A DNA stretch of 64,000 bases from Vulcanimicrobiota bacterium (GTDB lineage Bacteria > Vulcanimicrobiota > Vulcanimicrobiia > Eremiobacterales > Eremiobacteraceae), in NCBI GenBank assembly GCA_963805945.1, contig CAWDVP010000006.1:64001-128000 (forward strand), read 5' to 3'. Positions 4,937-62,420 of the stretch are shown here, in pieces. A program made the position numbers and the translations under genes. The number at the start of each line of letters is the position of its first letter. The first letter of the stretch is position 1. Under the pieces are notes generated by a model, which had not been told where the DNA came from, ran no database searches, and was given only the letters and a program-made list of their open reading frames with translations.

Positions 4937-4962
4937 GTAGGGGTCGACCTTCAGGTCGGCCC
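4937..4962 (+). repeat. REP-like hairpin family C (GTAG-GGGTCGACCT-tc-AGGTCGGCCC)
   Basis: Near-identical to copies at 41595 and 62395. Confidence 0.8.
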
Positions 4963-5040
4963 GGGCCATAAAGCGCGCTCGGCCTATGTCCCCAAACCTT
5001 CATTAGAGGACATAGACTTGAGCGTGGATAAGAGGCCCGC

Positions 5041-5947
5041 ATGCCGACGCCTGGGCCGGAATCCGTCGAGCTTTTCGCCACCTACATCCACCACGAACGG
5101 GGGCTGTCCGCGCGTACGGCCGGGGAATACGGCGCGGATATGCGCGATTTCGCCCGCTTCCTGGGCAAGAACACCACGGACAAGCAGCTGCTGCGGGCGA
5201 CGCGTGCCGACGTCGGGCGCTACGTGCAGACGCTCATGGGCAAGCGCAAGTACACGGCTGCGGCGGTGAAACGGCGGATCGCCTCGATCCGGGCCTTTTA
5301 CAAGTACGCCCGGCTGACGAACCTCATCTCGGAGAACGTGCTCGCCGACTTCCCGGCGCCCAAGGGCGGCCGGCACCTGCCCAAGGTGCTGTCGGAGCGC
5401 GAAATGACCAAGTTCCTCTCGGCGAAGATCCACGTGGATGACGAGATCATGTACGCCCGCGACCACGCGATCTTCGAGCTGATGTACGCCGCAGGGCTGC
5501 GGATCGGCGAGCTGGTGCGGCCTGGACATACGCGACGTCGATCGGGAGCGCCACCTCATGCGCGTGACCGGCAAAGGCAATAAGCAGCGCCTCGTGCTCT
5601 TCAACAAGACCGCCCGCCGTGCGCTTGAGCGTTATCTCGCCGTGCGCCCGAGCGCGACGACCGACGCCCTCTTCCTGAGCCGGCGCAACAAGCGTTTGAC
5701 GGTGCGCGGCGTGCGCTACGCCTTCGAAGGCATGAAGCGCGCAGCGGGCATCGAGGGTGCGGCCACGCCCCACACGTTGCGCCATTCGTTCGCGACGCAT
5801 CTGCTCGAGCATGGGGCGGATCTCATGGTCATCAAGGAACTGCTCGGCCACGAAAACCTGAGCACCACGCAGATCTACACGAACATCTCGCTCGAGCATG
5901 TTCGCCAGACGTACGACGACGCGCATCCCCGCGATAAGGACGCGTAG
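5041..5947 (+). CDS. XerC/XerD-family tyrosine recombinase, split by one frameshift near 5518 (likely sequencing error)
   Basis: GLRIGEL, GKGNKQR, HTLRHSFATHLLE, LLGH, TQIYT across ORFs 5041-5583 and 5558-5947. Confidence 0.9.
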
Positions 5948-6154
5948 GCGGACCTGGTCGGGTCGCGGCCGGGCTTGGGCTGGGCGGCCTGGGCGACCCC
6001 GGCCGCTTCGCGGGACGAGGAGGCCAGACGTTCGCCTCGAACACGACCCTATGCCAGCTTGGGGACCGCTCGGCTAGCCTTCTTCTTCTGCTGGCCCCTG
6101 GAGGCGTGAGCGGGCCGCGGCGTTCAATCGCCGTCGGTTTGCACTTCTTACCTG

Positions 6155-7084
6155 ATGCAAATTAGGGTGCTCGGATCGGCCGCCGGCGGAGGCGTGCCGC
6201 AATGGAACTGCGCGTGTAACAACTGCCGTGCGGTGCGTGCCAAGCAGCAACCGTCCCGGATGCAGGCGTCTATCGCCGTGTCAGCCGACGGCGAACGCTG
6301 GTTGCTCGCCAACGCCTCGCCCGACATACGCCATCAGATCGCCGCCTTCGAGAAACTCGCACCGCAGCCGCCGCGCCGCTCCGCGATCTCTGCCGTGGTG
6401 CTCACCGACGCCAACATCGATCACGCCTTCGGTCTGCTCGAACTGCGCCAAGCCGACCGGCTGAGCATCTATTCGACCGAGACGGTCCGCGATGTGCTGG
6501 TGAGCGGGAGCAGCGCGTTCCGGCCGTTCACCAAGCCGCCGAACACCTGGCACATCATCGCGGACTCCGCCGCACACGTCAACGACGCCGCCGGCCTGCC
6601 GGTCGGCTTGCGTATCCGCGCGATCGATGTCGGCGGCATCACCCCAGCGTATGACGGCGGCCGCTCGATTAAGGGCGCGGCTGCGGGCATCCTCATCAAC
6701 GACGGCGCGCACCGGCTGCTCTACGCGCCGTGCGTGGGCGAGATCACCGAGCCGCTGCGGCGCGAGCTCGCGCTTGCGGACGCGGCGTTCCTCGACGGCA
6801 CGTTTTGGAGCGATCACGAGCTCTCGGTCCAGGCGCTCGGCTCGCGCACCGCGCGACAGATGGGGCATATCCCGATCTCCGGCGAGGGCGGCATCCTGCC
6901 GCAGGTGACGGGCCTCGGTGGCCGCCACCGCTACTTCACCCACGTGAACAATACGAACTCGGTGCTCGACCCGCAGTCAGAAGCAGCGCGCGCGGTGCGC
7001 GATGCCGGCTGGGCGGTCGTCGACGACGGGTTGACGTTCTCGCTCTCCAAAGACTCCGGCGAGGCGTCGGGCACCCGCAAGTAG
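6155..7084 (+). CDS. pqqB: PqqB-like metallo-beta-lactamase-fold protein
   Basis: LGSAAGGGVPQWNCACNNC, NASPDIRHQI, DGTFWSD, MGHIPI, HVNNTN. Confidence 0.85.
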   Translation: MQIRVLGSAAGGGVPQWNCACNNCRAVRAKQQPSRMQASIAVSADGERWLLANASPDIRHQIAAFEKLAPQPPRRSAISAVVLTDANIDHAFGLLELRQADRLSIYSTETVRDVLVSGSSAFRPFTKPPNTWHIIADSAAHVNDAAGLPVGLRIRAIDVGGITPAYDGGRSIKGAAAGILINDGAHRLLYAPCVGEITEPLRRELALADAAFLDGTFWSDHELSVQALGSRTARQMGHIPISGEGGILPQVTGLGGRHRYFTHVNNTNSVLDPQSEAARAVRDAGWAVVDDGLTFSLSKDSGEASGTRK

Positions 7085-7099
7085 GGGAGGTATATCACC

Positions 7100-7615
7100 G
7101 TGCGCTTTGCTTACCAGCTTGTCGCACCGCTCGTAGCGTCGCTCGCCCTGTTCCCGGCATCGGCCATCGCAGCCGCGGCATCTCAGCAGGGAATCCAGCA
7201 GAAGAACGTCATCGTGCAGCCAGTGAGCCCGGCGCCGACGGCGCCGTGCCATCCAGCCAGTGGCGTCGGCGATGTCGTCGTCATCCCCGGCATGATGCCG
7301 TTCGAGGCCGAATCTGTCGCCTTCAGCGAGTCACCGAGCACGAATGTTGAGGGGCCGGCCGGACGGCGTGTCGGGCACGGCAGCGTCACCATCGTACGCA
7401 AGATCGGCGCGTCATTGGCGCAGATCCACGTCGGCGGGCGCGAAACATCGGCCATCCCGAGCATGACCATCACCATGCGCAGGGGCAGCCTGAGCAGCTA
7501 CATGGTCGTGACCCTGGAGCAGACGAGCCTGACCAGCGAATGGACCCGCAACGGCACGCAGCTGGAGACCTTGGTCTTCACGTTTGCGTCGCTGTACGAG
7601 TGCCGGGGCCCGTGA
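7100..7615 (+). CDS. Secreted protein with Hcp (T6SS tube)-like C-terminal pattern
   Basis: GGAGG RBS; signal peptide ending ASAIA; SVTIVRKIGAS...IPSMTITMRR...YMVVTLEQ...ETLVFTF. Confidence 0.5.
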   Translation: MRFAYQLVAPLVASLALFPASAIAAAASQQGIQQKNVIVQPVSPAPTAPCHPASGVGDVVVIPGMMPFEAESVAFSESPSTNVEGPAGRRVGHGSVTIVRKIGASLAQIHVGGRETSAIPSMTITMRRGSLSSYMVVTLEQTSLTSEWTRNGTQLETLVFTFASLYECRGP

Positions 7616-7625
7616 ACGGGCGCGA

Positions 7626-7835
7626 TTAGCGCCGGTCGAACTTACCCCAGTCGAAGCGCGTCACGTCGCCGGAGACGTGCACCACGCTGCCGTCCGGCTG
7701 GACGAGCACCCGCACCGGCTCCACGCCCTTGAGCTCGACGAGGATCGCGCCGGTACGCGTCGTCGCGCCGATGGCGAAGCCGTACTTCTTGAACTGCTTG
7801 ATGACTTCGCGCTGCTTGTCGGGTTTTTCAGGCAT
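7626..7835 (-). CDS. Small hypothetical protein
   Basis: 69-aa ORF with natural composition, downstream of LuxR gene. Confidence 0.6.
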   Translation of the reverse strand: MPEKPDKQREVIKQFKKYGFAIGATTRTGAILVELKGVEPVRVLVQPDGSVVHVSGDVTRFDWGKFDRR

Positions 7836-7851
7836 GGCCTAGGCTTTGCGC

Positions 7852-9350: not shown

Positions 9351-9351
9351 C

Positions 9352-11342: not shown

Positions 11343-11375
11343 ACGGAGCGGTCGAATTCATTCGACCGCTTTTTC
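11343..11375 (+). repeat. REP-like hairpin family A, intergenic, followed by a T-tract (likely terminator)
   Basis: ACGG-AGCGGTCGAA-ttca-TTCGACCGCT-tttt between convergent genes. Confidence 0.85.
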
Positions 11376-18602: not shown

Positions 18603-20423
18603 ATGACGCTTGATAGCTGGATGGTCGGGCGCTTAGCCCTCGAGCTGCAGGCGCTGCTCTCAGGCGCGCGCATCACGGAGCTGCGCGGCGGCGCGCTGTC
18701 GTTGACGGTGGCGCTCTATCGCCGGCAGCGGCAACCGGTGCTCTACGCGTCCTTCGACCCGCAGGCGCCTCTGGCCGCAGTGCTGGAGAGCGCCGGCCCC
18801 GCAAACGAAAGCGGCCCCGGTAGCTGGGCCGGCGGCGTCGCTCCGCTGCTCCGCGGGAGCGTCGTCGACGCAGTCCATGCCGTCCCAAACGACCGCATCC
18901 TCAACATCGACGTGAGTTCTCGCTCCGCGTTTGGGGTGCCTGCGCGGCACCGTATCGTCCTCGAGCTGGAGCCTCGCAAAGCCAACGCGTTGGTGCTGCG
19001 CCCGATGGATCACGACCGCTGGACGATCCTCGCTGCCGCCAAGGAATTCGAAGGCAGCGACGGCTCGCGCGCGATCGAGGTCGGCGAGATGTACGCGCCG
19101 CCGCCTGCGCGCCGGGCGAAGCTTGATCGGGCCGCGTTCCTCACCGCGGTCGATATAGAGCGCTTGGAGCGGTCGAATTCATTCGACCGACTCGACCCAT
19201 CAACTGCAGTGCCCGAGCGAAGCTCGGGAGATCTCCGCCTTCGCTCCCTCGCGCGTCTGTTAGGCGAGTTCGACCCGACCTGTACGCCGCCGCTCGCGCG
19301 CGAGGTGATCGAGCGCGCTCTGGAGCGCCCCAACGACGAGCTGGGGTACGCGATGCTCGACGTATGGGGACCGCTGCGCGAGCAGGTCGCTGTCGCCGCT
19401 GCGGATTTCGCGGCGCCCATCTTCGCGTATCGGCGCGGCAGCGGCGTCGCCACCTGCCACGTCGTCTCCCTGACCTGGCCGCCCGGCGAAGCCTCGCGCG
19501 AGAAGAGTCTCAACGCGCTCTGCGCGCAGGAGCTCGAACGCGGCCAGCGCACGCGCGTCGAACCGGCGGCAGCCGCGCTGCGCAAGAGGCTCGAATTGAT
19601 GCTGACGCGGTGCGACGCGGAAGTCGCCGGGCTGCGGGCTGCGCTTGATCGGGCGGACCGCGCCACTGAGCTGCGCGCCGCCGGCGATGCGCTCTACGCG
19701 GGTCTCGCGGACATCGAGCCGGGCAGCACGTCGTTCGTCACCGCGGACGGACACGCGGTCGCGCTCAACCCGCTGCTCACGCCGAAGCAGAACGCGGCCG
19801 ACTACTTCAAACGATACAAGAGGGCGCGCAGCGGGCTGCCGCGCATCAAGGCGCGGCTCGCCGCGCTCGCCGCGCACAAAGAGCATTGGGAACAGCTGCT
19901 GTGGGAGCTCGATCGCGCGGACGCGCAGCCGGCGCTGCGCACCGCGATCCACGCCGACGTGACCGCAGCGATCTCCAAACGCAAGGCCCCTGGAGCGGCC
20001 GACTTTAGTCGACCGGGAAAAGCGAAACGTAAGAGCAGCGGTCGAATGGATTCGACCGCTCCAAAGTTTGGCGAAGGTGTGCTGCTGTCCGGTGGCGCGA
20101 CTGCGTTCGTCGGCCGCTCGCCAAAAGACAACGAGCGGCTGACCTTCGTTGTCGCGCGGCCGAACGACTACTGGTTCCACGCGCGCGGCATCCCTGGTGC
20201 GCACGTCATCCTCAAGCTCGCGCATGCGGGCGAAACGCCCACCCAAGAACAGCTCGAGGCCGCTGCGGCGCTTGCCGCGGGAGCGAGCCGTGCCTCAGAC
20301 GCCGGCAAGGTCGAAGTCGATTACACCCAACGCAAGCACGTGCGGCGTCAAGGCAAAGGCGCGACCGGGCTCGTCTGGTACACGGACGTCAAGACGATCC
20401 TGGTCACGCCCAAGGGCCCCTAG
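18603..20423 (+). CDS. rqcH: RqcH/Rqc2 (FbpA, NFACT) ribosome quality control factor
   Basis: MTLD N-terminus, NDRIL, LTPKQNAADYFKRYKR, VGRSPKDNE, WFHARGIPGAHV, VDYTQRKHV. Confidence 0.88.
   Translation: MTLDSWMVGRLALELQALLSGARITELRGGALSLTVALYRRQRQPVLYASFDPQAPLAAVLESAGPANESGPGSWAGGVAPLLRGSVVDAVHAVPNDRILNIDVSSRSAFGVPARHRIVLELEPRKANALVLRPMDHDRWTILAAAKEFEGSDGSRAIEVGEMYAPPPARRAKLDRAAFLTAVDIERLERSNSFDRLDPSTAVPERSSGDLRLRSLARLLGEFDPTCTPPLAREVIERALERPNDELGYAMLDVWGPLREQVAVAAADFAAPIFAYRRGSGVATCHVVSLTWPPGEASREKSLNALCAQELERGQRTRVEPAAAALRKRLELMLTRCDAEVAGLRAALDRADRATELRAAGDALYAGLADIEPGSTSFVTADGHAVALNPLLTPKQNAADYFKRYKRARSGLPRIKARLAALAAHKEHWEQLLWELDRADAQPALRTAIHADVTAAISKRKAPGAADFSRPGKAKRKSSGRMDSTAPKFGEGVLLSGGATAFVGRSPKDNERLTFVVARPNDYWFHARGIPGAHVILKLAHAGETPTQEQLEAAAALAAGASRASDAGKVEVDYTQRKHVRRQGKGATGLVWYTDVKTILVTPKGP
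19164..19189 (+). repeat. REP-like family A, in frame within rqcH (LERSNSFDR)
   Basis: TTGG-AGCGGTCGAA-ttca-TTCGACCG. Confidence 0.85.
19206..19229 (+). repeat. REP-like family B, in frame within rqcH (AVPERSSG)
   Basis: GCAG-TGCCCGAGC-gaa-GCTCGGGA. Confidence 0.8.
19990..20064. repeat. Inverted doublet of family A elements in frame within rqcH
   Basis: CTGG-AGCGGCCGAC-ttta-GTCGACCG (19990-20015) and AGCGGTCGAA-tgga-TTCGACCGCT-CCAA (20037-20064). Confidence 0.8.
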
Positions 20424-27468: not shown

Positions 27469-28617
27469 TTATATCTTCGAGAGCATCGCCCCGCGATAGT
27501 AGAACGAGAGGATCGCGTTGATGCCCAGACCTTGGTCGGCCATATCCTTGGCGCCCCACTGGCTCATCCCCACCCCATGCCCGAAACCCGAGCCTTTCAC
27601 CACGATCGCGTCGCCCTCCAGCGCCAAAGATGCGATGCGCGTGCTCTTCACCAGATGCCGGCCCGCAAGGCGGCGGAACAGGGGTCCGGAGATGCTGCGC
27701 GTCCCGGTGCTGCCGGCGACCGTGACGCTGAGAAGCCTCCCCGACGAGTCAGCTGCGCCTGGAGTCACAGCCGTGATGGTCCCAATGTCGGCGACCTGTT
27801 CCGAAAACGCCTGCGCGAAGCTCGCGAGCGGCACGTCCGCCGACCACGAGAGATGCGGTGATTCGCCCGCGTATGGGTCGGGCGTCGCCTGCAAATACGG
27901 CTGCGGATCACCGAGATTCGCTCCATCCGCGGTGTAGCCGCCGTCGCACGACGAGTAGTACGCTTTGATCACATGATAGCGGTAGACGAGCACGACGCCG
28001 CGGGTGGATTCGACCGCGTCATCACCGGCCTGGTTCTCGTCGTTGACGCCGCCGTACGCCTGGTCTTGCTCGCCGGCCTTCACGTCGTAGCCCGGGTATT
28101 CGTGCAGCGCCGCGCGCGCGAGCGCATAGCTGCGCGAGGCGATCGCCTGCGCTTGGAGCGCGACCTCCGGCCACCCGGCACCCATCTCCGCGCCGACGAC
28201 GCCGTACAGGTATTGCTCCAGCTCGAGCTCGTCGATCACCTCGAGCGTGCCATCATCGTCGCGCACCACCCAGATCGCGCCGCGGTAGGTGCGGCCGTCC
28301 ACCACGATCGGCGCTTGTTGAAGCGGCGCCACCCAGATGCGCGCGCCGGTCGTCACCGCGCCGGCGAGGAGCACCCCGCCCGCTTGCGGGCGCACGTCGA
28401 TGACGGTGGTGATCTCGGGCTGGAACAGCGGGTCCCCGACGCTCCCGTTGACGCCGCGCACCACCAAACCGCCCTCGGAAGCGATGACCGTCTGCAATTG
28501 ATGCGACGCGAGCTGGACGCGGATGGTCTGCGCCCGCACCGGCGCAGCCGCCATCGCGACGATGATAAGCGCCAGGACCACAGCACGGTCGAATAAATTC
28601 GACCGCTCTATTATCAT
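27469..28617 (-). CDS. SpoIID/LytB-domain protein
   Basis: [48 protein letters not shown]. Confidence 0.93.
28586..28611 (-). repeat. REP-like family A in the N-terminus of the SpoIID/LytB gene (IERSNLFDR)
   Basis: ATAG-AGCGGTCGAA-ttta-TTCGACCG on minus strand. Confidence 0.85.
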
Positions 28618-30808: not shown

Positions 30809-32920
30809 TCACTTCCCGATGACGAGCGAAACGCCGTTATTACCCGAAGGCGGCGTGGTGCCGGCCGCGGGATCGCTGCTCAAGACCTTCGCATCTGCAG
30901 GCGAGCCGGGCAGCACCGTGACGCGATCGAGGTGATAGCCGCTGCGCTCCAACGCCGCCTTGGCTTGATCAACCGACATGCCGACGACGTTGGGTACCGG
31001 GGAGAGCGCCGCTGCACCGCTGGCGCCGGGCGCCGGCGAAGCGACGTCGCCGGCCGCCACCACGAGATCGATGGCCGCGCCCTCGCTGACGCGCGCGAAC
31101 GCGCCAGGCGTCTGGCTGAGCACCGTGCCGGCTGGTTTGTCGGGCACGGCGGCCTGCACGATGTTGCCGACCGCGAGGCCGGCGCCGACGAGGGTCTGCC
31201 GCGCGGCGTCCATGGTCTGTCCGACGACCTGCGGCACTTCGATCGCCGCCGGGCCGCCGCTCACGTCGACCATCACGGTGCCGCCCGGCGCGAGACCGCT
31301 GCGTTCGCTCGGGTCCTGGCTCAGGATCACGTGCGCGGGGATGTTGTTGACCGCCACCTCGGAGTTGACCGCGAGCTTGAGTCCGAGCTTGGCGAGCAGC
31401 GAGCGCGCGGAGTCCTCGTCCATCGACACGACGTTGGGCACCGTGACCATCTCCGGCCCGGCGCTCACGCTGATGACGACCGCGACCCCTTTGCCGAGCG
31501 GCGAGCCGGGCGCAGGATTGGTCGCGGCCACCAGGCCCTGCTTGATCGTCGCGTTATGCACCGGCTTGCCGAGGTGCACGGCGAAGCCTTGCGCGACGAG
31601 GAACTCTTGCGCGTTCTTCGGATCTTGCCCGAGCACGTTGGGCACCTCGACCGTGGGCGGGCCGTCGCTGACGAGCAGCGTGATCTTCGAGTCGCGGCCG
31701 ACGGTGGTGTTGAGCGCCGGATCGGTGCCCGCGATGAGGCCGCCCTGGACGGCGGGGTCGGCCTGCTGCTTGATCGCGACGTCATCGATCCCGAGCGCGT
31801 GCAGCGCGGTCACGGCCTCGGCGACCGACTTGCCGCCGAGGTCCGGCACCCGCAGCGTGCGGGAGGACGCTTGACGCGCGGCGACCAGGAGCGCGATCAA
31901 CACGAGCGCGACGACCAGACCGGCCGCCCACGCGATCGCGCGGTTCGCGCGCCACACCGGCACGGCTTCCTCGCGCGGCAGTGCGACATCCACCACCGGC
32001 GCCGGCCGTGCACGCCGGCGCAGCACTTCGGTCGGCGTGTCAGGCCCTGGGGCCTCGCGATCTTCATCGTCTCGTGCTTCGCCGCGTGAGACACGGCGCA
32101 AGGCGGCGAGCACCTCGCCGGCCGATTGGTAGCGTTCGTGCGGCGCTTTGCGCAACAGCTTGGCGACGATGGCGGCCATGCCCGGGCTGACGGATGTCGA
32201 GGCGTCCAGCGCTGGGGCCGGATCGTTGACGATCGACTCCGCGAGCGCGTCGTGGTCGGCGCCGGTGAAGGGCCGCGCGCCGGCCAGCATCTCGTAGAGC
32301 ACCACGCCGACGCTGTAAAGATCGCTTGCCTCGCTGCTCGCGGCGCCGGTGAGCTGCTCGGGCGCGCAATACGGCAGCGAGCCCATGAGCGTGGAGAAGC
32401 TTCCCGAGCTTCGCTCGGGCACCACAGCCTCCGAAACGGGCTGCGAGATCGCGTGGGCGATGCCGAAATCGGTGATGCGCACGACGTCGTCGCGCGTGAT
32501 GAGGATGTTCGACGGCTTCACGTCGCGATGCACGACCTCTTGACGGTGCGCGGCGGCCAGCGCCGCGCAGATCTGCCGCGCGTAACGCACAGCGACCGAC
32601 TCCGGCAGCCGACCTTGGCGTGCCTCGAGCGTCGCGAGGGTCTCACCCGCGACGTACTCCTCGACGATGTAGTGGTCGCCGTTCTCCTTGCCGACGTCGT
32701 AGGTCTGGACGATGTTGGGATGCGACAGCTTGGCAGCTGCTTGGGCCTCGAAATCGAAACGTTCCACGAAGGCGGCGTCGGCCGAGAACTTCGGCCGCAG
32801 CACCTTGATCGCGACCTGGCGGCGCAAGATGAGGTCGTAGCCGCGATAGACCACGGCCATGCCGCCCTCGCCGATTTTCGCGTCGAGCCGGTAGCGATTG
32901 TTGTAGATGACGTCGGGCAA
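30809..32920 (-). CDS. pknB: PASTA-domain Ser/Thr protein kinase (PknB/PrkC type)
   Basis: IGEGGMAVVY, VAIKVL, HRDVKPSN, DFG, APE; TM segment; multiple PASTA repeats. Confidence 0.93.
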   Translation of the reverse strand: MPDVIYNNRYRLDAKIGEGGMAVVYRGYDLILRRQVAIKVLRPKFSADAAFVERFDFEAQAAAKLSHPNIVQTYDVGKENGDHYIVEEYVAGETLATLEARQGRLPESVAVRYARQICAALAAAHRQEVVHRDVKPSNILITRDDVVRITDFGIAHAISQPVSEAVVPERSSGSFSTLMGSLPYCAPEQLTGAASSEASDLYSVGVVLYEMLAGARPFTGADHDALAESIVNDPAPALDASTSVSPGMAAIVAKLLRKAPHERYQSAGEVLAALRRVSRGEARDDEDREAPGPDTPTEVLRRRARPAPVVDVALPREEAVPVWRANRAIAWAAGLVVALVLIALLVAARQASSRTLRVPDLGGKSVAEAVTALHALGIDDVAIKQQADPAVQGGLIAGTDPALNTTVGRDSKITLLVSDGPPTVEVPNVLGQDPKNAQEFLVAQGFAVHLGKPVHNATIKQGLVAATNPAPGSPLGKGVAVVISVSAGPEMVTVPNVVSMDEDSARSLLAKLGLKLAVNSEVAVNNIPAHVILSQDPSERSGLAPGGTVMVDVSGGPAAIEVPQVVGQTMDAARQTLVGAGLAVGNIVQAAVPDKPAGTVLSQTPGAFARVSEGAAIDLVVAAGDVASPAPGASGAAALSPVPNVVGMSVDQAKAALERSGYHLDRVTVLPGSPADAKVLSSDPAAGTTPPSGNNGVSLVIGK
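32402..32425 (-). repeat. REP-like family B in frame within the kinase activation segment (VVPERSSG)
   Basis: GTGG-TGCCCGAGC-gaa-GCTCGGGA on minus strand, between DFG and APE codons. Confidence 0.8.
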
Positions 32921-34330: not shown

Positions 34331-37554
<3,224 letters not shown>

Positions 37555-37558
<4 letters not shown>

Positions 37559-38634: not shown

Positions 38635-40004
38635 TTCGATGGCCCTGGAGCGGGCGCGCCCGAAGACGGAGCGGTCGAATTTATTCGACCGCCCGCGGCG
38701 ACGGGCCGTTCCGGATCCCGATGCACGATCGCCCCGCCCACGACGGTGAGCGCGGGCCGCACTTTGAACGTCTTGCCGGCGAACGGCGTGACGTGGCCGA
38801 GCGAGAGGAACTTCTCCGGCTCGACGACCCACGGACGATCGAGGTACAGGCCGGTGATGTCGGCTGGTGCGCCGAGCGCGAGCGTGCCGCCGCGCACGCC
38901 GAGCAGCGCCGCGACATTGCTCGAGAAGTTCGCGACCATCGTCTTGAGCGCCACGTCCGGGAGCGCGTCGAAGGTCGCGCCGACCGCGACCTCGAGCCCG
39001 GAGAAGCCGACGCAGGCGTGCGAGAGGGGCGGTTCTTTCTCGGACGCGGCGTGAGGCGCGTGATCGCTGGCGAACACGGTGATGGTGCCGTCGGCGACTG
39101 CTTCGCGCATGGCGGTGACGTCCGCCGGCGAGCGCAACGGCGGGTTGACGCGCATCGCGGCGTCGAAGCCGCGCAGCGCCTCGTGCGAGCATTGGAGATG
39201 GTGCGGCGTGACTTCCGCGGTCGCGCGCACGCCGTTGGTCCGCGCCCAACGCAAGACGTCGAGGGTCATGCGCGTGCTCACGTGGCAGAGGTGCCAGCGC
39301 TTGCCCGTGGCCTGGGCCACGAGCAGGTCGCGTGCGGCGATGGCCGCTTCGGCGAGCGCGGGCGAACCGGGTACCCCGAGCAGATCGCTGATCTCGCCCT
39401 CGTGCATGAGCGCGCCGGCGAAGCTCGGATCGTCGCAGTGCGACATGAACGGCTGGGGCAGATCGGCGACGAGTTTCGCCGCGTGATAGAGCGCTTTGAG
39501 CGACGACGTCGCCGCGCCGTCATCGGAGAAGGCGACCGCACCGGCAGCGGCCATCGAACGCAGCGCAGCGAGCGCCACGCCCTCGCGGCCGAGGGTGACC
39601 GCGCCGATCGGATAGCAGCGTGCGCCGCGCAGCGCAGCGGCATCTTTGATGAGCCGCGACACGCGAGCGGCATCGTCCATCGCCGGCCTCGTGTTCGGCA
39701 TCGCGGCGACGGCGGTGAAACCGCCAGCGGCCGCTGCCGCGAGCGCGGTGCGCAGTGTCTCTTTGTGGGTGTCGCCAGGCTCGCGCACGTGGACGTGCGG
39801 GTCGATGAAGCCGGGGCACAGCACCATGCCGCGGCAGTCCACGCGCTCGCTGTGCGGATCAGGCGCCGAAGGCGCGTCGGCAAGCAGCGCGGTGACGACG
39901 CCGTTGCGGATGACGATGGTGCGGATCGCGTCGAGACCGAGCACCGGGTCCACCACGCGCGCGCCGACGAGGTCGCGGTTCTCGGGCTTGAGTTGCGTGC
40001 TCAT
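38631..40004 (-). CDS. pyrC: Dihydroorotase
   Basis: PGFIDPHVHVREPG, AMPNT, FSDDG, EVTPHHL, ASDHAPH. Confidence 0.95.
   Translation of the reverse strand: MSTQLKPENRDLVGARVVDPVLGLDAIRTIVIRNGVVTALLADAPSAPDPHSERVDCRGMVLCPGFIDPHVHVREPGDTHKETLRTALAAAAAGGFTAVAAMPNTRPAMDDAARVSRLIKDAAALRGARCYPIGAVTLGREGVALAALRSMAAAGAVAFSDDGAATSSLKALYHAAKLVADLPQPFMSHCDDPSFAGALMHEGEISDLLGVPGSPALAEAAIAARDLLVAQATGKRWHLCHVSTRMTLDVLRWARTNGVRATAEVTPHHLQCSHEALRGFDAAMRVNPPLRSPADVTAMREAVADGTITVFASDHAPHAASEKEPPLSHACVGFSGLEVAVGATFDALPDVALKTMVANFSSNVAALLGVRGGTLALGAPADITGLYLDRPWVVEPEKFLSLGHVTPFAGKTFKVRPALTVVGGAIVHRDPERPVAAGGRINSTAPSSGAPAPGPSK
38666..38692 (+). repeat. REP-like family A in frame within the pyrC C-terminus (GRINSTAP)
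   Basis: ACGG-AGCGGTCGAA-ttta-TTCGACCGC. Confidence 0.85.
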
Positions 40005-41493: not shown

Positions 41494-41594
41494 TCCGGTA
41501 TCCAGCCCTTTCGCGTCGATTTCGGGTCGTACGGGTCGGACTTATGTATTCTCAATCGGCCCTTGGCGGGCCTGCCCTATTGCCTAAGACCCAT

Positions 41595-41620
41595 GTAGGG
41601 GCCGACCTTTAGGTCGGCCC
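41595..41620 (+). repeat. REP-like family C, perfect hairpin
   Basis: GTAG-GGGCCGACCT-tt-AGGTCGGCCC. Confidence 0.85.
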
Positions 41621-42875: not shown

Positions 42876-45490
42876 AGAGAGCGCAGGCGGTCGCGGCTTA
42901 GTTCGATGCCGGCCCGCAGCTCGCCGAGGCGCGTGCGTTCTTTGGCGACGACCGCTGGCGGCGCTTTGTCGACGAAGTTCGTCTGCAGCTTGCGCTCGAT
43001 GCCTGCCGCCTCGGCCTCCGCGCCGGCGATCTCCTTGTCCAGCGCGGCGCGCTCTTTGTCCACGAACGCGGCGTCGACCGGCAAGAGGATCTCGACCGCG
43101 CCTAAACGCCGCGACACAGCGTGCGTCGGCCGGCCGTCTGCACCCTTCGGCGCGTTGATCTTCTCCGCGCGCCCCAACCGCATCACGACGCCGCGCTCGC
43201 GCTCGAGCAACGTCAGCAGCTGGTCATCGGCGCCGAGCACCGTCACGTCGCGCAGCTCGCGGAACGGTAGCTTCGGCAGCGCGCGCAGCATGCGCACCGC
43301 GTCGACGAACTCGAGCACGCGCGTCATCTCGGCGCGCGCCACGTCATCTTGGTGGCCGGCTTCGGCTGGCCAGGCCGAGCGCTCGATGAGCCCGTCAGAA
43401 CCAAGCCTATGCCCCAGCTCCTCGCTGACGAACGGCATGATCGGGTGGATCAGCTGCATGCACGTGGCCAGCACGGAGTTCAAGATCGGCGCGCGCGTCG
43501 GCGCCTTATCCTTGGCGATCTCGATGTAGACGTCGCAGACCTGGTACCAGATGAAGGCATAGAGCAGTTGCGACGCCTCGGCGAAGTCGTAGGTGTCGAG
43601 CGCTTGCGTGACCCGCCTTGCGGTCAGGGCGAGCGCGTCCATGATCCAGCGATCCGGAAGAGTCCACTCGTCGACCGCTGGCAATGGAGCGGTCGAATTC
43701 AGTCGACCGTCCGCCAAGTCGATCGCGAAGCGCACCGCCTGCCATATCTTGTTGCAGAACTTGCGCGCGTCGTCGCACTTCCCGATGGCGAAGCGCACGT
43801 CTTGCGTTCCGTGCATCTGCCCGACGACGCCGAAGCGGGTCGCGTCCGCGCCGTACGACGCGATGAGGTCCATCGGGTCGAGCGCGTTGCCGAGCGACTT
43901 GCTCATCTTGCGGCCCTGCTCGTCGAGGATGAGCGGTGTGATGAGGACTTCGTGGAACGGGATGTCGCCGGCGAAGTGGATGCCGAACATCACCATGCGC
44001 GCCACCCAGTTGAAGATGATCTCGCGCGCGGTGAGCAGCAGCTGGTTGGGATACCAGGCGGCGAGCTCCGGCGTGTGCTCGGGCCAGCCGAGGATCGCGA
44101 ACGGCCACAGACCGCTGGAGAACCACGTGTCGAGCGTGTCCTCGTCCTGCTGCAGTTCGGTCGAGTTGCACTCACCGCACGCATGCGGCGCGCTCTCCGC
44201 GACCGTCACGTGGCCGTGCTGGCAATACCAGACGGGCAGACGGTGGCCCCACCAGATCTGGCGCGAGATGCACCAATCGCGGATGTGCTCGAGCCAATCG
44301 TCGTATGTGCGCTGATAGCGCTCCGGCGTGAAGCGCAGGCGCCCCTTGCGCGACGCCTCCAGCGCCGGCTCGGCGAGCGGCTTGATCTTGACGAACCACT
44401 GCAGCGAGAGCAGCGGCTCGACCACGGTGTCGCAGCGGTAGCACGTGCCCGTGTTGACGGTGTACGCCTCTTCTTTCACCAGGGCACCGCGTTCGCGCAG
44501 CAGCGCGACGGCGCGCTTGCGCGCCTCGAAGCGATCCAGCCCCGCGAACTCCGGCTCGACGGCATCGGTCATCTTCGCGTCGGGGCCGATTACGGAGAGC
44601 GCGGCCAAACCGTGGCGTTCGCCGATCTCCGCGTCGGTCTGGTCGTGGCCGGGCGTGATCTTCAGCGCGCCGGTGCCGAACGCACGTTCCACGGCCGCGT
44701 CGGCGATGACCGGGATCGGGTGGCGCGAGAGCGGCCGCATGACGAGCCGCCCGATAAGCGGGATATAACGCTCGTCTTCGGGATGCACCGCGACCGCCAC
44801 GTCGGCGAAGATCGTCTCGGGGCGCGTCGTCGCGACCACGGCGCCTTCGCCGCCGTCCTCGCCGCGATAGCGCACGTAGTAGAGCGTGCCTTGCGACTCT
44901 TCATGCTCGACTTCGGTGTCGGCAAGCGTCGTCGCGCAACGCGGGCACCAATTCACCAGGCGCGTGCCGCGGTAGATGAGCCCCTCGTGATAGAGCTGCA
45001 CGAACACCTTGAGGACGGCTCTGCTCAGGCCTTCGTCCATGGTGTAGCGATCGCGCTGCCAATCGGGGCCGAAGCCGAGCGCGCGGAACTGGTCGTAGAG
45101 GATGCCGCCGTAGAGCGTGCGCCACTCGCGCGCGCGCTGGATGAAGGCCTCACGACCGAGATCGAAACGCGTCAGCCCCTCTTTCGCCAGTTCTTTTTCG
45201 ATGACGTTCTGCGTGGCGATCGCCGCATGGTCCTGACCGGGCAGCCACACGGCATTCTCGCCGCGCATGCGGTGGTAGCGCGTGAGGATGTCCATCGCGG
45301 TGTAGGTGGAGCCGTGGCCCATGTGCGCGCGGCCGGTGATGTTCGGCGGCGGCATGGAGATGACGAACGGCGGCCGTGACGGGTCGGGCTCAGCGTGGAA
45401 GAGGCCGTCGGCTTCCCAGACGGCATACCACGACGCCTCGATCGCGCCGGGATCATACTTGTCGAGCATGGGCTTGTCGGGCGGCGCCAT
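42872..45490 (-). CDS. valS: Valine-tRNA ligase
   Basis: PPPNITGRAHMGH, DHAAIATQ, WCISRQIWWGH, KMSKS. Confidence 0.98.
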   Translation of the reverse strand: MAPPDKPMLDKYDPGAIEASWYAVWEADGLFHAEPDPSRPPFVISMPPPNITGRAHMGHGSTYTAMDILTRYHRMRGENAVWLPGQDHAAIATQNVIEKELAKEGLTRFDLGREAFIQRAREWRTLYGGILYDQFRALGFGPDWQRDRYTMDEGLSRAVLKVFVQLYHEGLIYRGTRLVNWCPRCATTLADTEVEHEESQGTLYYVRYRGEDGGEGAVVATTRPETIFADVAVAVHPEDERYIPLIGRLVMRPLSRHPIPVIADAAVERAFGTGALKITPGHDQTDAEIGERHGLAALSVIGPDAKMTDAVEPEFAGLDRFEARKRAVALLRERGALVKEEAYTVNTGTCYRCDTVVEPLLSLQWFVKIKPLAEPALEASRKGRLRFTPERYQRTYDDWLEHIRDWCISRQIWWGHRLPVWYCQHGHVTVAESAPHACGECNSTELQQDEDTLDTWFSSGLWPFAILGWPEHTPELAAWYPNQLLLTAREIIFNWVARMVMFGIHFAGDIPFHEVLITPLILDEQGRKMSKSLGNALDPMDLIASYGADATRFGVVGQMHGTQDVRFAIGKCDDARKFCNKIWQAVRFAIDLADGRLNSTAPLPAVDEWTLPDRWIMDALALTARRVTQALDTYDFAEASQLLYAFIWYQVCDVYIEIAKDKAPTRAPILNSVLATCMQLIHPIMPFVSEELGHRLGSDGLIERSAWPAEAGHQDDVARAEMTRVLEFVDAVRMLRALPKLPFRELRDVTVLGADDQLLTLLERERGVVMRLGRAEKINAPKGADGRPTHAVSRRLGAVEILLPVDAAFVDKERAALDKEIAGAEAEAAGIERKLQTNFVDKAPPAVVAKERTRLGELRAGIELSRDRLRSL
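43684..43709 (+). repeat. REP-like family A in frame within valS (GRLNSTAP)
   Basis: ATGG-AGCGGTCGAA-ttca-GTCGACCG. Confidence 0.85.
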
Positions 45491-47060: not shown

Positions 47061-47084
47061 CCCCGAGCTCCGCTCGGGCACTAC
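47061..47084 (-). repeat. REP-like family B between clpP and clpX, abutting the clpX RBS
   Basis: GTAG-TGCCCGAGC-gga-GCTCGGGG-AGAGGTGT-ATG. Confidence 0.85.
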
Positions 47085-47722: not shown

Positions 47723-49084
47723 GATTCTCCTATTTCTCCCCGAGCTGCGCTCGGGCACTACTTCGGTCTGCGTTGCGACGTGCGGCGGCGAGACCTCGAC
47801 GACCTCCGCCTTTTCGACTAGGAACGCGATCGTCTTGTTACGCTTGATCGCGGACAGCAAGCGCCCCAGCGCATCGTTCTTCTGCAAGGCCTCAAGCGTC
47901 GCCCGGCGCGACTGGCCGCTCGAGCGGGCGAGGGAGTCTATTTCGTGATCGACGTCGCTGCCGGACACCGTGATGTTCTCCTTCTTGCCGATCTGCTCGA
48001 TTAGCAGGCCGGTTTTGATGCGGCGACGTGCCTGCGCTTTCAGCCGTTCCGTCATCTCATCTTCGAGGATGTTCTGCGACTGCAGATATGCTTTCCAATC
48101 GGCGCCCGATCGCTCGACGTCATGCTTCGCGTCGTGCAGCATCGCCTCGGCCTCGCGCGTGACGAGCACGTCGGGCAGCGGGAACTCGTGTGCGGCCGTG
48201 ATCTTCTCGATGAGCTCGTTCTCGACCGTCTCAGCGGCGCGCGCCTGCTGCATGCGCTCGAGCCGGGCGCGGATCGCCTCGCGCAGCGCGGCGAGGTCGG
48301 GCAGATCGGAGACCTGCTTGACGAATTCCTCGTCGAGCGCCGGCAGCACCGGCGTCTTGATGTCGTGGACCGTCACCTCGAAGACCGCCGCTTTGCCCGC
48401 CAAGGACTCGGGCTTGTAGACGGCGGGAAAGGTGACGTTGAGCGTGCGCTGTTCGCCGGCGCGCGCATCGCGCAGCTGTTCGGCGAAGCCCGGGATGAAG
48501 CGCTCGGGAGATATCTCGGTGGTGTGGTTCGTCGCGCTGCCGCCTTCGAACAATTCGCCGTCGATGCGGCCGGCGTAATCGAGCGTGACGACATCGCCGT
48601 CGACGATGCCGCGGTCCTCGACGGGTTCGAGCGTCGCGGCGCGGCGGCGCAGCGCTTCGAGGCTTTCGTCGACATCAGCGTCCGTGATGTGCACGGCGGG
48701 CTTGTTCACTTTGACGCCGGTGTAGGCGCCGAGGGTGATCTCGGGGCGCACCGCGACTGTGGCCGTGATCTTGAGCGTCTTGCCGTCATCGCCGCGCTCG
48801 AGATCGATCTTCGGCCGGTCGACCGGGTCGAGATCGTGCTCTTCAAGCGCTTTGGCATATGCGTCGGGCACCACCGTCTCGATGGCTTCGTGCTCGACGT
48901 GCTCGGCGCCGACGTGCTGCTCGACGATGCGGTGGGGGATGTGGCCCGGGCGGAAGCCGGGCAGGCGCAGCTGCTGGGAAAGCTTGTGCAACGCCTGTGC
49001 GCGCGCGCGCGCGAACTCGGGTGCATCGACCTGGATGTCCAGTTGGACTTGGGTCGGGTCGATCTTCTTCAGGGTGGTGGTCAA
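47723..49084 (-). CDS. tig: Trigger factor (reads in frame into clpP in this sequence)
   Basis: PGFRPG ribosome-binding motif, FEGG..FIPGF FKBP domain; tig-clpP-clpX synteny. Confidence 0.93.
47738..47761 (-). repeat. REP-like family B at the tig/clpP junction (VVPERSSG)
   Basis: GTAG-TGCCCGAGC-gca-GCTCGGGG. Confidence 0.85.
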
Positions 49085-56287: not shown

Positions 56288-56295
56288 ACACTGAT

Positions 56296-56456: not shown

Positions 56457-56471
56457 ATTCGGGCGACCCGC

Positions 56472-57154: not shown

Positions 57155-57233
57155 TGGTCGGGCGGACAGGACTTGAACCTGCGAATCCTCTCGGTCCCAA
57201 ACCGAGCGCTCTACCAAGCTGAGCTACCGCCCG
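57155..57233 (-). tRNA. tRNA-Pro(TGG)
   Basis: CGGGCGGTAGCTCAGCTTGG...TTTGGGA...CCA. Confidence 0.92.
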
Positions 57234-57272
57234 TTGGATTGAGTATTTAGGCGCCAGATTCGCTCTTTCCCG

Positions 57273-57878: not shown

Positions 57879-57885
57879 GACAGAC

Positions 57886-59712: not shown

Positions 59713-59771
59713 CCGGAAATCAAACGAGAGGCGTTCACGCCTCCCGCATTCGCCAGCGGCACGGGACTCTC

Positions 59772-60821: not shown

Positions 60822-60834
60822 CGGACTCCTCCGG

Positions 60835-61317: not shown

Positions 61318-61426
61318 GAGACGAGCACCCCCCTAGTTTCTAATCGGGAACTACCTGTCCCCCCTGAATCCCGCTGTACCAATGTGACTTGTCCCACAAT
61401 CCGACACCTCGCGCCCGCAGCTGAAA

Positions 61427-61547
61427 GGGGGCTCGGGCCGCGAGATGACCGCGGCGCCCGAAAGGTCCCACATGCCGCTGCTACCTTCCGGTCCTGACGG
61501 GATTAGCGGGTTTTCGTCGCGCGGGTCCCGTTGCCGTCAACGCCCCC
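61427..61547 (-). ncRNA. ffs: Signal recognition particle RNA (small form)
   Basis: Conserved helix-8 motif TCAGGACCGGAAGGTAGCAGC within a long hairpin closed by GGGGCG/GCCCC. Confidence 0.92.
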
Positions 61548-61568
61548 ACGAAGTCGAGCGCACAGATC

Positions 61569-61656
61569 CGGAGAGGGAGGGATTCGAACCCTCGAGACGG
61601 GTTTAGCGCCTACACGATTTCCAGTCGTGCCTGATCGACCACTCCAGCACCTCTCC
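61569..61656 (-). tRNA. tRNA-Ser(GGA)
   Basis: GGAGAGG stem, CTGGAAA loop, long variable arm. Confidence 0.93.
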
Positions 61657-61704
61657 GCACGAATGCGCATGCTTCAAGTACGGCCGTGGTCATCCTTGCC
61701 GTTC

Positions 61705-62268
61705 TCACGGGGCATTGCTGCGCGTCACCTCCGCGCAGGTCCAATCGATCGTACCGAACACGGTGCCCCCGCGCTCGTCGCCGTTCTGCCCGTACAGCGT
61801 CCGATAGTTCTCGAAGCTCGCGCTGCCGCCGTGACCCCCGTCGCGGATGGTGATGGTCACCTTCGTGTCAGGTCGCTCCTCGAGCGTCGTACCATGCGGA
61901 AATCCCGGGCCCCGTGCCACGTTCAAGATGACCCAGCTCAAGACGCGCGAGATTCCTTCGTGCGCCGCCGCAGACTCATTGTAGGTGCCGTCGCCGTTGT
62001 ACTCGGGCACGAGCACCTCGCCGCCTTCGATCACGTCATCGCCCTCGAAGGTCGCGCTGTACCCGTTGAGCAGCTTGCCGCCGGGCTTGCCGACGAAGCA
62101 ACGCTTCACCGCCGCATCATGCGAGAGGCGGATCGCACCGTGCACCGAGATGTGCGCGACCGGCGCAGCCGAGGCCGACGGCTCTGCCGATCCATTCGAA
62201 CCAGACCTATGGCCGCAACCGGCGCACGTCAGCGCGACGGCGATGAGCGCAGCCGCTAGACGGCGCAT
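61705..62268 (-). CDS. Putative lipoprotein
   Basis: GAGG RBS; MRRLAAALIAVALTCAGC lipobox-like. Confidence 0.7.
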   Translation of the reverse strand: MRRLAAALIAVALTCAGCGHRSGSNGSAEPSASAAPVAHISVHGAIRLSHDAAVKRCFVGKPGGKLLNGYSATFEGDDVIEGGEVLVPEYNGDGTYNESAAAHEGISRVLSWVILNVARGPGFPHGTTLEERPDTKVTITIRDGGHGGSASFENYRTLYGQNGDERGGTVFGTIDWTCAEVTRSNAP

Positions 62269-62291
62269 CCGCGAGACCTCACGTTCCACGC

Positions 62292-62381
62292 TGGCGGAGA
62301 GGGTGGGATTTGAACCCACGAACGGGTTTAGCCGTTACTCGCTTTCGAGGCGAGCGCGATCAACCACTCTGCCACCTCTCC
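62292..62381 (-). tRNA. tRNA-Ser(CGA)
   Basis: CTCGAAA loop, long variable arm, CCA. Confidence 0.93.
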
Positions 62382-62394
62382 ACGCACTATGTTC

Positions 62395-62420
62395 GAGCCG
62401 ACCTCCAGGTAGGCCCCTAC
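62395..62420 (-). repeat. REP-like family C overlapping the tadA stop codon
   Basis: GTAG-GGGCCTACCT-gg-AGGTCGGCTC on minus strand. Confidence 0.75.

What the first reader, a model, noticed from the sequence alone, without database searches (positions are those of the whole stretch)
4937..62420. Three families of REP-like hairpins that colonise protein-coding genes in frame
Seen: at least 15 copies of 24-28 bp elements, each a tetranucleotide followed by a palindrome. Family A is NTGG/ACGG/ATAG-AGCGGTCGAA-n4-TTCGACCG (8 copies). Family B is GTAG/GTGG/GCAG-TGCCCGAGC-gna-GCTCGGG (4). Family C is GTAG-GGGCCGACCT-nn-AGGTCGGCCC (3). Ten copies of A and B lie inside open reading frames of conserved genes (rqcH x4, spoIID, pknB, carB, pyrC, valS, tig end), and two C copies overlap stop codons. 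Established: GTAG/GTGG plus hairpin is the architecture of REP sequences mobilised by RAYT (TnpA-REP) HUH transposases, which are typically extragenic; coding-region insertion is known for the much longer Rickettsia palindromic elements. Inference: a minimal REP system that spreads into coding DNA and acts as a peptide-insertion mutagen in this lineage. No RAYT gene is visible in this window.
Basis: partly seen in the sequence, partly recalled or inferred. Interest (0 to 1): 0.88.

Follow-up and report, generated by a model that had tools for sequence, protein, structure and literature searches.

The report
REP hairpins inside conserved genes
This bacterium carries about 420 copies of three small mobile DNA hairpins (REPs), and dozens of copies from two of the families sit in frame inside conserved genes as extra surface-loop peptides, a kind of event already described in other bacteria.

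Summary
The window holds 14-15 copies of three hairpin families, against 0-0.26 expected. The 2.3 Mb genome holds A 175, B 81 and C 163.

All three have REP architecture: a G(T/G)AG head followed by a 7-8 bp stem. Family C flanks, 2+2 and inverted, the genome's only REP-associated tyrosine transposase (RAYT), which lies outside the window. A and B have no RAYT here. A-like REPs do flank RAYTs in a related genus.

In-frame coding copies are genuine for A and B. A strict test finds them inside ORFs for 22 of 175 A, 15 of 81 B and only 1 of 163 C, against 40% of random positions. Orthologues in sister species show empty sites for rqcH, valS, carB, pknB, alr, DUF885 and ftsK.

Only one C copy supplies the stop codon of a supported gene.

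Intragenic GTAG REPs are already published (Di Nocera et al. 2013, PMC3733652). Verdict: a new member of a known kind. Modest extras are orphan families that persist without a RAYT, and re-use of the same protein loop by different families.

The parts
4936..4961 (+). Family C REP (TGTAGG head plus GGTCGACC/GGTCGGCC stem). It is extragenic, between divergent genes.
11343..11368 (+). Family A REP, extragenic.
19164..19189 (+). Family A REP in frame inside rqcH (18603-20423 +). It encodes LERSNSFDR. Absent from the G002, G005 and G011 orthologues.
19206..19228 (+). Family B REP in frame inside rqcH, 16 nt after the A copy. It encodes AVPERSSG. Absent from the orthologues.
19990..20015 (+). Family A REP (degenerate, score 28.8) in frame in the basic linker of rqcH. 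It encodes GAADFSRP and is the left half of an inverted pair.
20039..20064 (-). Family A REP in frame in rqcH. It encodes SGRMDSTAP and is the right half of the inverted pair (23 nt spacer, 75 nt in all).
28586..28611 (-). Family A REP at the very start of the longest spoIID ORF (27469-28617 -). It may lie 5' of the true start codon.
32403..32425 (-). Family B REP in frame in the activation loop of the PASTA Ser/Thr kinase gene (30809-32920 -), after the DFG motif. It encodes VVPERSSG. G005 and G011 carry decayed remnants; G002 has none.
36105..36130 (+). Family A REP in frame inside carB (34331-37558 -), read on the opposite strand as ERSAEVDRS. G002 and G005 carry A at the same site in the other orientation; G011 is empty.
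38666..38691 (+). Family A REP in the non-conserved C-terminal tail of pyrC (38631-40004 -), after the end of the amidohydrolase domain.
41594..41619 (+). Family C REP between a phosphoribosyltransferase gene (40939-41493 -) and a split short-chain dehydrogenase. It lies inside the 3' tail of ORF 41577-42044(-).
43684..43709 (+). Family A REP in frame inside valS (42872-45490 -), between the catalytic and anticodon-binding domains. It encodes DGRLNSTAP. G002 has the same orientation, G005 the inverted one; G011, G003 and G001 are empty.
47062..47084 (-). Family B REP, extragenic, between clpX and clpP. G002 has a B copy just beyond the clpP stop.
47739..47761 (-). Family B REP at the tig-clpP junction. 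It sits where relatives have the tig stop codon, so tig and clpP read as one 661-codon ORF (47099-49084 -).
62395..62422 (-). Degenerate family C REP. The TAG of its head (minus strand, 62417-62419) is the stop codon of a tadA-like deaminase gene (62417-62899 -).

Best explanation
These are three families of REP elements of the GTAG super-family. REPs are short hairpins that a REP-associated tyrosine transposase (RAYT, an HUH/Y1 enzyme related to IS200/IS605 TnpA) copies as single-stranded DNA.

Family C is young. It is confined to this species, it still has its RAYT, and it is almost wholly extragenic.

Families A and B are older. They are shared with sister species and have no RAYT in this assembly or in the five congeners searched with a RAYT protein (six with Pfam PF01797).

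Insertions land everywhere, and selection keeps those that do little harm. Most survivors lie between genes. A minority lie inside genes, where the insert keeps the frame, carries no stop codon and falls in a loop, a linker or a terminal tail. Each single element then adds 7-9 residues. Near gene ends, the element's own TAG or TAA can become the new stop codon.

Shown here: the architecture, the copy numbers, the RAYT-C association, the in-frame positions, and the empty and re-used sites in relatives.
Inferred: mobilisation by a RAYT, the relative ages of the families, and that the peptides are tolerated rather than useful.
For: Copy number. A position-weight scan finds A 175, B 81 and C 163 elements. 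A first-order Markov genome of the same size gives 0, 1 and 0.

Consensus sequences:
- A: ATGGAG-CGGTCGAA-TTYA-TTCGACCG
- B: GTAGTG-CCCGAGC-GAA-GCTCGGG
- C: TGTAGG-GGCCGAYC-TTTA-GRTCGGCC

Stem pairing is kept through changes on both arms. 45 of 175 A copies and 107 of 163 C copies have a paired position that differs from the consensus on both arms.

Inverted dimers are present: C 23 and A 9, with heads outward.

RAYT evidence:
- One Y1_Tnp ORF lies at contig C3:119.6-120.1 kb, flanked by two C REPs on each side in inverted orientation.
- It scores 100.2 bits on NCBIfam NF047646 'REP-associated tyrosine transposase' (cut-off 80) and E 1.2e-8 to E. coli TnpA-REP, PDB 4ER8.
- The HUH and GYY motifs align.
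- In genus g4 (G009), two RAYTs of 94.6 and 89.3 bits are flanked by GGGGAG-CGGTCGAGA and GTAG-CGGTCGAGC REPs.
- The G011 RAYT is flanked by GTAGTG-CCGGGGC REPs.

Genuinely coding copies. The strict test required both 240-nt flanks to be coding in one frame with no stop. It found A 22 of 175, B 15 of 81 and C 1 of 163, against 2002 of 5000 random positions. C differs from A+B at Fisher p 9e-8. Of the 25 host ORFs outside the window, 23 have Pfam domains at E up to 1e-5, including dnaE x2, ftsK, mutS2, alr, rodZ and minC.

Empty or differently filled orthologous sites were seen in rqcH, valS, carB, pknB, alr, DUF885 and ftsK.

Family A is read in four of its five open frames in this genome, and in the fifth in G005 carB.

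Distribution of exact patterns in 20 relatives:
- A: G000 143, G002 130, G005 147, G006 158, the other 17 genomes 0-8.
- B: G000 50, G002 26, G011 15, the other 18 genomes 0-2.
- C: G000 106, all 20 relatives 0-1.
Against: No RAYT for A or B was found in this genome. The assembly is only 82% complete. None was found in the congeners either, so who moved A and B is not shown.

The rqcH, spoIID, pyrC-tail and tig copies are specific to this species. That suggests recent A and B activity despite the missing enzyme.

Family A's head is mostly GGAG rather than GTAG.

Exact insertion boundaries, and therefore the inserted length and any target duplication, could not be read. The nearest relatives are only 76-79% identical in ValS.

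Gene calls are my own crude codon-usage caller. The strict test recovers only 40% of random positions, so the in-ORF counts are lower bounds. The lenient counts may include over-extended ORFs: 37 of 175 A, 23 of 81 B and 3 of 163 C, against 3201 of 5000 random positions.

Translation of the REP-bearing genes was not observed.
Confidence: 0.87

Rival explanations
1. The 'intragenic' copies are an artefact of ORF over-extension in a 66% G+C genome. On this view the hairpins lie between genes or in pseudogenes, and stop-poor frames simply run across them.
For: This is true, or may be true, for some copies:
- The spoIID copy sits in codons 3-11 of the longest ORF.
- The pyrC copy lies beyond the domain end.
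- The tig copy lies at a gene junction.
- The ORF that ends at C 41594 is a shadow ORF.

The assembly also holds split genes: a xerC-like gene at 5041-5947 and a dehydrogenase at 41577-42450.
Against: In valS, carB, pknB and rqcH, Pfam domains lie on both sides of the element or span it, and orthologues align on both sides in one frame. valS is single-copy: one search found one full-length match. Of 25 further hosts, 23 carry domains, many of them spanning the element.
Confidence: 0.05
2. The hairpins are host-made functional signals (terminators, mRNA stabilisers, or gyrase or nucleoid-protein sites) that selection maintains and gene conversion spreads. On this view they are not transposed elements, and the coding copies are kept for an RNA or DNA role.
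For: Stems stay paired through changes on both arms. Families A and B persist at 130-158 copies (A) and up to 26 copies (B) in species where no RAYT was found. The pknB copy is perfect in this genome while its remnants in relatives have decayed.
Against: The consensus shows no T-run after the stem. Intragenic A copies are more decayed than extragenic ones: 9 of 22 have a stem mismatch against 27 of 153, and their scores are lower (p 0.027). The head-plus-hairpin layout and the inverted flanking of RAYT genes are the signature of transposed REPs. Presence and absence vary between sister species.
Confidence: 0.06
3. The single C-type RAYT, or a RAYT in the missing 18% of the assembly, currently moves all three families, so A and B are not orphans.
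For: All three heads end in AG, with G(T/G)AG. Ten or eleven of the 14 window copies are specific to this species, among them four in rqcH. Mixed A-B, B-A and A-C neighbours 0-20 nt apart are common. Completeness is 81.9%.
Against: The RAYT is flanked only by C. In the literature that I read, each REP family has its own REPtron (passages of PMC3733652). G002, G005 and G006, at 97-98% completeness, hold 130-158 A copies and no RAYT.
Confidence: 0.2

Closest known systems
GTAG-tagged REPs, including intragenic ones (Di Nocera, De Gregorio and Rocco 2013, BMC Genomics 14:522, PMC3733652; I read passages and Additional file 3, part 1)
   Same: These are 20-40 bp hairpins with a GTAG-type head. They are mostly extragenic, form inverted dimers, and their RAYT genes are flanked by the repeats. 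The head TAG is used as a stop codon. Single units (7-9 residues) and dimers (about 15-25 residues) lie in frame inside known genes. The host types overlap those found here: dnaE2, E2 acyltransferases, a Ser/Thr kinase, tRNA synthetases and pseudouridine synthases.
   Different: This is a different lineage with different sequences. Family A mostly has GGAG in place of GTAG. The density is high: at least 38 in-ORF copies in 2.3 Mb, against roughly 70 rows for Opitutus terrae in part 1 of Additional file 3. Families differ strongly (A and B inside genes, C not), and sister species re-use the same sites.
REPIN-RAYT systems (Bertels and Rainey 2011, PMC3116915; Nunvar et al. 2010, PMC2817692; both seen only in the search listing)
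   Same: A single-copy RAYT is flanked by its REPs. Inverted doublets are present, and families are lineage-specific and vertically inherited.
   Different: Here two of the three families have no RAYT in the genome or in the congeners searched. Many copies are singlets, and a sizeable share lies in coding DNA.
Rickettsia palindromic elements (RPE), as cited in PMC3733652
   Same: Palindromic repeats inserted in frame in genes that still look functional.
   Different: My recollection, from no call, is that RPE-1 is about 100-150 bp; one search says only that RPE-1 inserts are longer. The paper classes the short RPE-4 and RPE-6 as CGTC-type REPs, and CGTC REPs lack a dedicated transposase. The elements here are 23-26 nt, GTAG-type and RAYT-linked.
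E. coli TnpA-REP (PDB 4ER8)
   Same: The genome's RAYT aligns over residues 17-144 at E 1.2e-8, with the HUH motif conserved.
   Different: Sequence identity is low. Its activity on these hairpins has not been tested.

Membership tests
REP (GTAG super-family) | Short (20-40 bp) imperfect palindrome present in many dispersed copies | tested here: met
   A 175, B 81 and C 163 copies of 23-26 nt, against 0-1 in the null.
REP (GTAG super-family) | Conserved GTAG tetranucleotide at one end of the hairpin | tested here: met
   C has TGTAGG and B has GTAGTG. A has ATGGAG, with GTAG in a minority of copies, so A is a GGAG variant.
REP (GTAG super-family) | Predominantly extragenic location | tested here: met
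   Strict in-ORF share is A 12.6%, B 18.5% and C 0.6%, against 40% of random positions. The intergenic share is 50%, 44% and 78%, against 15% of random positions.
REP-RAYT system (REPtron) | A RAYT gene flanked by the family's REPs in inverted orientation | tested here: met
   Met for C: C3:119555-120175 with 2+2 REPs around an ORF scoring 100.2 bits on NF047646.
REP-RAYT system (REPtron) | A cognate RAYT for families A and B in this genome | tested here: not met
   PF01797 and five RAYT proteins each find only the C-flanked gene. The assembly is 82% complete. A-like REPs flank RAYTs in G009, and REPs with a B-like head flank the G011 RAYT.
REP-RAYT system (REPtron) | RAYT-dependent cleavage or copying of the hairpins | not testable with these tools
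   This needs biochemistry or genetics.
REPIN | Two REPs in inverted orientation acting as one unit | tested here: met
   There are 23 C-C and 9 A-A heads-outward pairs with 3-62 nt spacers. Most A and B copies are singlets.
Intragenic REPs (as in PMC3733652) | The element lies wholly inside a conserved ORF, in frame and without a stop, and is absent from orthologues | tested here: met
   Seen in rqcH, valS, carB, pknB, alr, DUF885 and ftsK, and in 38 strict cases in 30 ORFs.
Rickettsia palindromic elements (RPE-1) | A long (about 100-150 bp) palindromic insert | tested here: not met
   The elements are 23-26 nt and dimers are about 57-75 nt. The RPE length is recalled, not taken from a call.
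Intrinsic terminator | A G+C-rich hairpin followed by a T-run | tested here: not met
   The 3' flank of all three consensus sequences carries 0-0.3 bit per position and shows no T-run.
MITE | Terminal inverted repeats of 15-30 bp around a 70-300 bp body, with a target-site duplication | tested here: not met
   The whole element is one 7-8 bp stem plus a 6-nt head. Target duplication could not be assessed.

The most novel reading that the evidence does not exclude
Loops of conserved proteins act as heritable landing pads for REPs. The same loop is occupied by a different family, or by the other orientation, in sister species:
- alr: B here, an A-A dimer in G005 and G006.
- DUF885: A here, a decayed B in G005 and G006.
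- valS and carB: A in both orientations.

Mixed-family neighbours are common. The only A copies shared across species in the 64-80 kb syntenic block are the two intragenic ones.

This would mean that new REPs home to the head of a resident REP, as in IS200/IS605-style insertion 3' of a GTAG-like target. It would also mean that coding DNA preserves REP families long after their transposase is lost. The result would be a recurrent, lineage-wide source of loop-length change in essential proteins.
Probability: 0.25. Interest if true: 0.55.

Novelty: new member of a known kind. Interest (0 to 1): 0.34.

Why it matters
This is a clean, dense example of REP hairpins tolerated inside essential genes: valS, carB, two dnaE paralogues and the activation loop of a PASTA kinase. 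Sister genomes show both empty and re-filled sites.

It is useful as a natural map of insertion-tolerant loops. It is also a system for asking how REP families outlive their transposase.

It does not reveal a new kind of element. For annotation, it warns that the REP-borne tails, starts and apparent gene fusions in this high-G+C genome need care.

Tried and rejected
- **Public sequencing runs.** The search listed four soil-metagenome DNA runs, each holding only 5-6% of the sampled words, and no RNA holder. Laying reads to look for strain-level empty sites failed.
- **First hairpin-family definitions.** My first loose definitions pulled in many chance G+C-rich hairpins with no head, so I replaced them with a position-weight scan.
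- **RAYT relatives in genome contigs.** The scan returned 52 loci, the best 52% identical and labelled a Proteobacteria MAG. It did not name this organism and I did not use it further.
- **RAYT search in congeners.** A G009 RAYT protein searched against G001, G002, G003, G005 and G006 gave only noise: the best hit was E 0.005 at 17 bits.
- **Target motif at empty sites.** The empty tig site of G002 reads GTCGTAGCATAA, and the empty alr site of G003 reads GATGTC where G006 has GATGTAA plus a hairpin. Two cases at this level of divergence are a hint, not a finding.
- **Structure and complex prediction.** Not run. The loop or linker placement rests on alignments and Pfam boundaries only.
- **Taxonomy.** Not established here.

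Full report
**What is in the sequence**

The three motifs are present at the stated places and far above chance. Family A gives 11 both-strand matches at 6 loci with up to 2 mismatches, against 0 expected. Family B gives 8 matches at 4 loci, against 0.26 expected. Family C gives 3 matches, against 0 expected.

The window is C6:64001-128000 of a 2,306,167-base, 8-contig assembly with 66% G+C and 81.9% estimated completeness.

I listed every perfect hairpin in the genome with a stem of at least 7 and a loop of 3-6. The same three stems head that list: GGTCGAA 108, GCCGATC 58, CCCGAGC 52 and GCCGACC 50. Below them lies only G+C-rich background.

I oriented the copies by their asymmetric flank and built position-weight matrices. 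The consensus sequences are:
- A: ATGGAG-CGGTCGAA-TTYA-TTCGACCG
- B: GTAGTG-CCCGAGC-GAA-GCTCGGG
- C: TGTAGG-GGCCGAYC-TTTA-GRTCGGCC

After removing overlaps, the scan finds 175 A, 81 B and 163 C elements. A first-order Markov genome of equal size gives 0, 1 and 0 above the same score.

**What the elements are**

Each element has a G(T/G)AG head followed by a short stem-loop.

Stems keep pairing through changes on both arms. Heads-outward inverted pairs are common: 23 for C and 9 for A.

The genome holds exactly one Y1-transposase gene, on another contig at C3:119.6-120.1 kb. Two C elements precede it and two follow it in inverted orientation.

Its product scores 100.2 bits on NCBIfam NF047646 'REP-associated tyrosine transposase', where the cut-off is 80. 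It matches E. coli TnpA-REP (PDB 4ER8) at E 1.2e-8. It carries the HUH and GYY motifs. Family C is therefore a textbook REP-RAYT system.

No second RAYT is found with Pfam PF01797 or with five RAYT proteins.

In the same bacterial family, however, genus g4 (G009) has two RAYTs of 94.6 and 89.3 bits. These are flanked 3+3 and 2+2 (plus one further GAG-headed copy downstream) by GGGGAG-CGGTCGAGA and GTAG-CGGTCGAGC hairpins, which is the family A design. The G011 RAYT is flanked by GTAGTG-CCGGGGC hairpins, which share family B's head. A and B are thus REPs of the same kind whose enzyme is not in this assembly.

**Distribution among relatives**

Exact-pattern counts in 20 relatives were as follows:
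- A: 143 here, 130 in G002, 147 in G005, 158 in G006, and 0-8 in the other 17.
- B: 50 here, 26 in G002, 15 in G011, and 0-2 elsewhere.
- C: 106 here and at most 1 in every relative.

None of the six congeners has a Y1_Tnp match. Two of them are 97-98% complete in 6 contigs. A RAYT protein query against five of the congeners gives only noise.

So C is a recent, species-specific expansion with its enzyme. A and B are older families that persist in several species where no RAYT was found.

G010 is flagged unpublished. No claim here rests on it.

**Are copies really inside genes?**

In a 66% G+C genome, ORFs over-run, so I used two tests.

The first test was homology within the window, with the following results.
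- **valS.** The A element lies between the catalytic and anticodon-binding domains and reads DGRLNSTAP. G002 has it in the same orientation and G005 has it inverted (GAVDFIRP). G011, G003 and G001 are 3-8 residues shorter at this point and lack it.
- **carB.** G000, G002 and G005 each carry A at one linker site, in two orientations and three reading frames. G011 is empty.
- **PASTA kinase.** A perfect B element follows the DFG motif. G005 and G011 keep decayed remnants and G002 has none.
- **rqcH.** An A+B tandem and an A/A inverted pair, 75 nt in all, are absent from all three relatives.
- **The remaining three cases.** The spoIID copy is at the very start of the longest ORF. The pyrC copy is in a non-conserved tail. 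The tig copy replaces the stop codon.

The second test was genome-wide and used codon usage. I required both 240-nt flanks to be coding in one frame with no stop between them. It finds 22 of 175 A, 15 of 81 B and 1 of 163 C inside ORFs. The same test scores 2002 of 5000 random positions as inside, so it is conservative.

With my crude gene calls, the 'internal' shares are 37, 23 and 3 elements, against 64% of random positions.

Of the 25 host ORFs outside the window, 23 carry Pfam domains at E up to 1e-5. They include both dnaE paralogues, ftsK, mutS2, alr, rodZ, minC, an E2 acyltransferase, two RluA-type synthases and a penicillin amidase.

Three of these hosts were checked in five congeners:
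- **alr.** B here, an A/A dimer in G005 and G006, a single A in a broken G002 gene, and nothing in G001 or G003.
- **DUF885.** A here, a decayed B in G005 and G006, and nothing in G001, G002 or G003.
- **ftsK.** B here only.

**It is the DNA that is conserved, not a peptide**

Family A is read as ERSNxFDR, GAVExIRP, GRxNSTAP and RSNKFDRS in this genome, and as WSGRIYST in G005 carB.

The elements are depleted in genes relative to random positions, with binomial p from 5e-5 to 8e-35. So they remain mainly extragenic, as REPs should be.

**Differences between families**

C is almost never inside an ORF: 1 of 163, against 37 of 256 for A+B, Fisher p 9e-8. Only three of C's six frames are free of stops, against five of six for A and B. 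That alone would still predict about 14 C copies in ORFs (p 1e-5).

C instead often ends genes. In 28 of 163 copies, a TAG or TAA inside the element is the first stop of a coding upstream frame.

Intragenic A copies are somewhat more decayed than extragenic ones. A stem mismatch is present in 9 of 22 against 27 of 153, and scores are lower (p 0.027).

In the syntenic 64-80 kb block, the only A copies shared with G002 or G005 are the two in carB and valS.

My inference is that extragenic copies turn over while in-frame copies are locked in. I hold this loosely, because the sample is small.

**Mechanism**

Shown: the architecture, the RAYT-C association, the in-frame survivors and the empty sites.

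Inferred from what is established for HUH/Y1 enzymes of the IS200/IS605 type and for TnpA-REP:
- The hairpin is handled as single-stranded DNA.
- The head is the recognition and cleavage context.
- Insertions are filtered by selection, so that only frame-keeping, stop-free inserts in loops, linkers and tails remain.

Site re-use by different families, and frequent mixed-family neighbours 0-20 nt apart, suggest that new copies land beside resident ones. I could not test this.

**Comparison with what is known**

Di Nocera, De Gregorio and Rocco (2013, PMC3733652; I read passages and Additional file 3, part 1) describe GTAG- and CGTC-tagged REPs. They report heads that supply TAG stops, and single units and dimers lying in frame within known genes. 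They list roughly 70 such rows for Opitutus terrae. Their hosts include dnaE2, E2 acyltransferases, a Ser/Thr kinase, tRNA synthetases and pseudouridine synthases.

I did not re-examine ribH.

The finding is therefore a new member of a known kind.

My two literature searches turned up nothing on this lineage. I did not search for site re-use specifically, so I do not claim it is unpublished.

**Caveats**

- Gene calls are my own.
- The nearest relatives are distant: ValS is 76-79% identical. Exact insert boundaries are therefore unknown.
- The assembly holds split genes. The tig-clpP single ORF may therefore be a one-base error.
- No expression or population data could be obtained.

**Verdict**

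Novelty is low and interest is about 0.34.

Noticed in passing
window 47099-49084 (-): tig and clpP read as one 661-codon ORF. A family B REP sits where G002, G005 and G011 have the tig stop codon, and a TAG lies one base out of frame just before the clpP start. This is either a real Tig-ClpP read-through fusion or a one-base assembly error.
   Followed up: partly
window 5041-5947 (+) and 41577-42450 (-): Two genes are split into overlapping ORFs. One is a xerC/D-like recombinase (SAM-like N domain, then the catalytic domain). The other is a short-chain dehydrogenase (profile positions 3-108, then 120-186). They are frameshifts or assembly indels.
   Followed up: partly
G000 contig C3:119555-120175 (L001 1340-1976): The genome's only RAYT gene, flanked by 2+2 family C REPs in inverted orientation. 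It lies outside the window.
   Followed up: yes
L125 3300-3650 (G011:C14:79.3-79.65 kb): An array beside what looks like a tRNA gene (read by eye, no tRNA scan was run). Two REP types alternate head to tail three to four times: CCGGGGC-TAAA-GCCCCGG-CACTAC, then CCCGAGC-TCC-GCTCGGG-TCGCTAC.
   Followed up: no
L022-L029 (G002 pknB, G005 rqcH) and L130 (G002 alr): Relatives' orthologues of REP-bearing genes are frameshifted or split. G002 alr breaks exactly at its REP, with a loop TAG in frame. Either the genes are really damaged or these few-contig assemblies carry indel errors.
   Followed up: no
L036 1-810 (G008:C26): Another RAYT is flanked by 4+3 tandem copies of a GAAG-GGGCCGAG hairpin spaced 49-53 nt apart. 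This is a C-like family with a GAAG head.
   Followed up: no
window 19164-19228; genome-wide: REPs of different families often sit next to each other in direct orientation, 0-20 nt apart (A-B, B-A, A-C, C-B pairs). This suggests that new copies land beside resident ones.
   Followed up: partly
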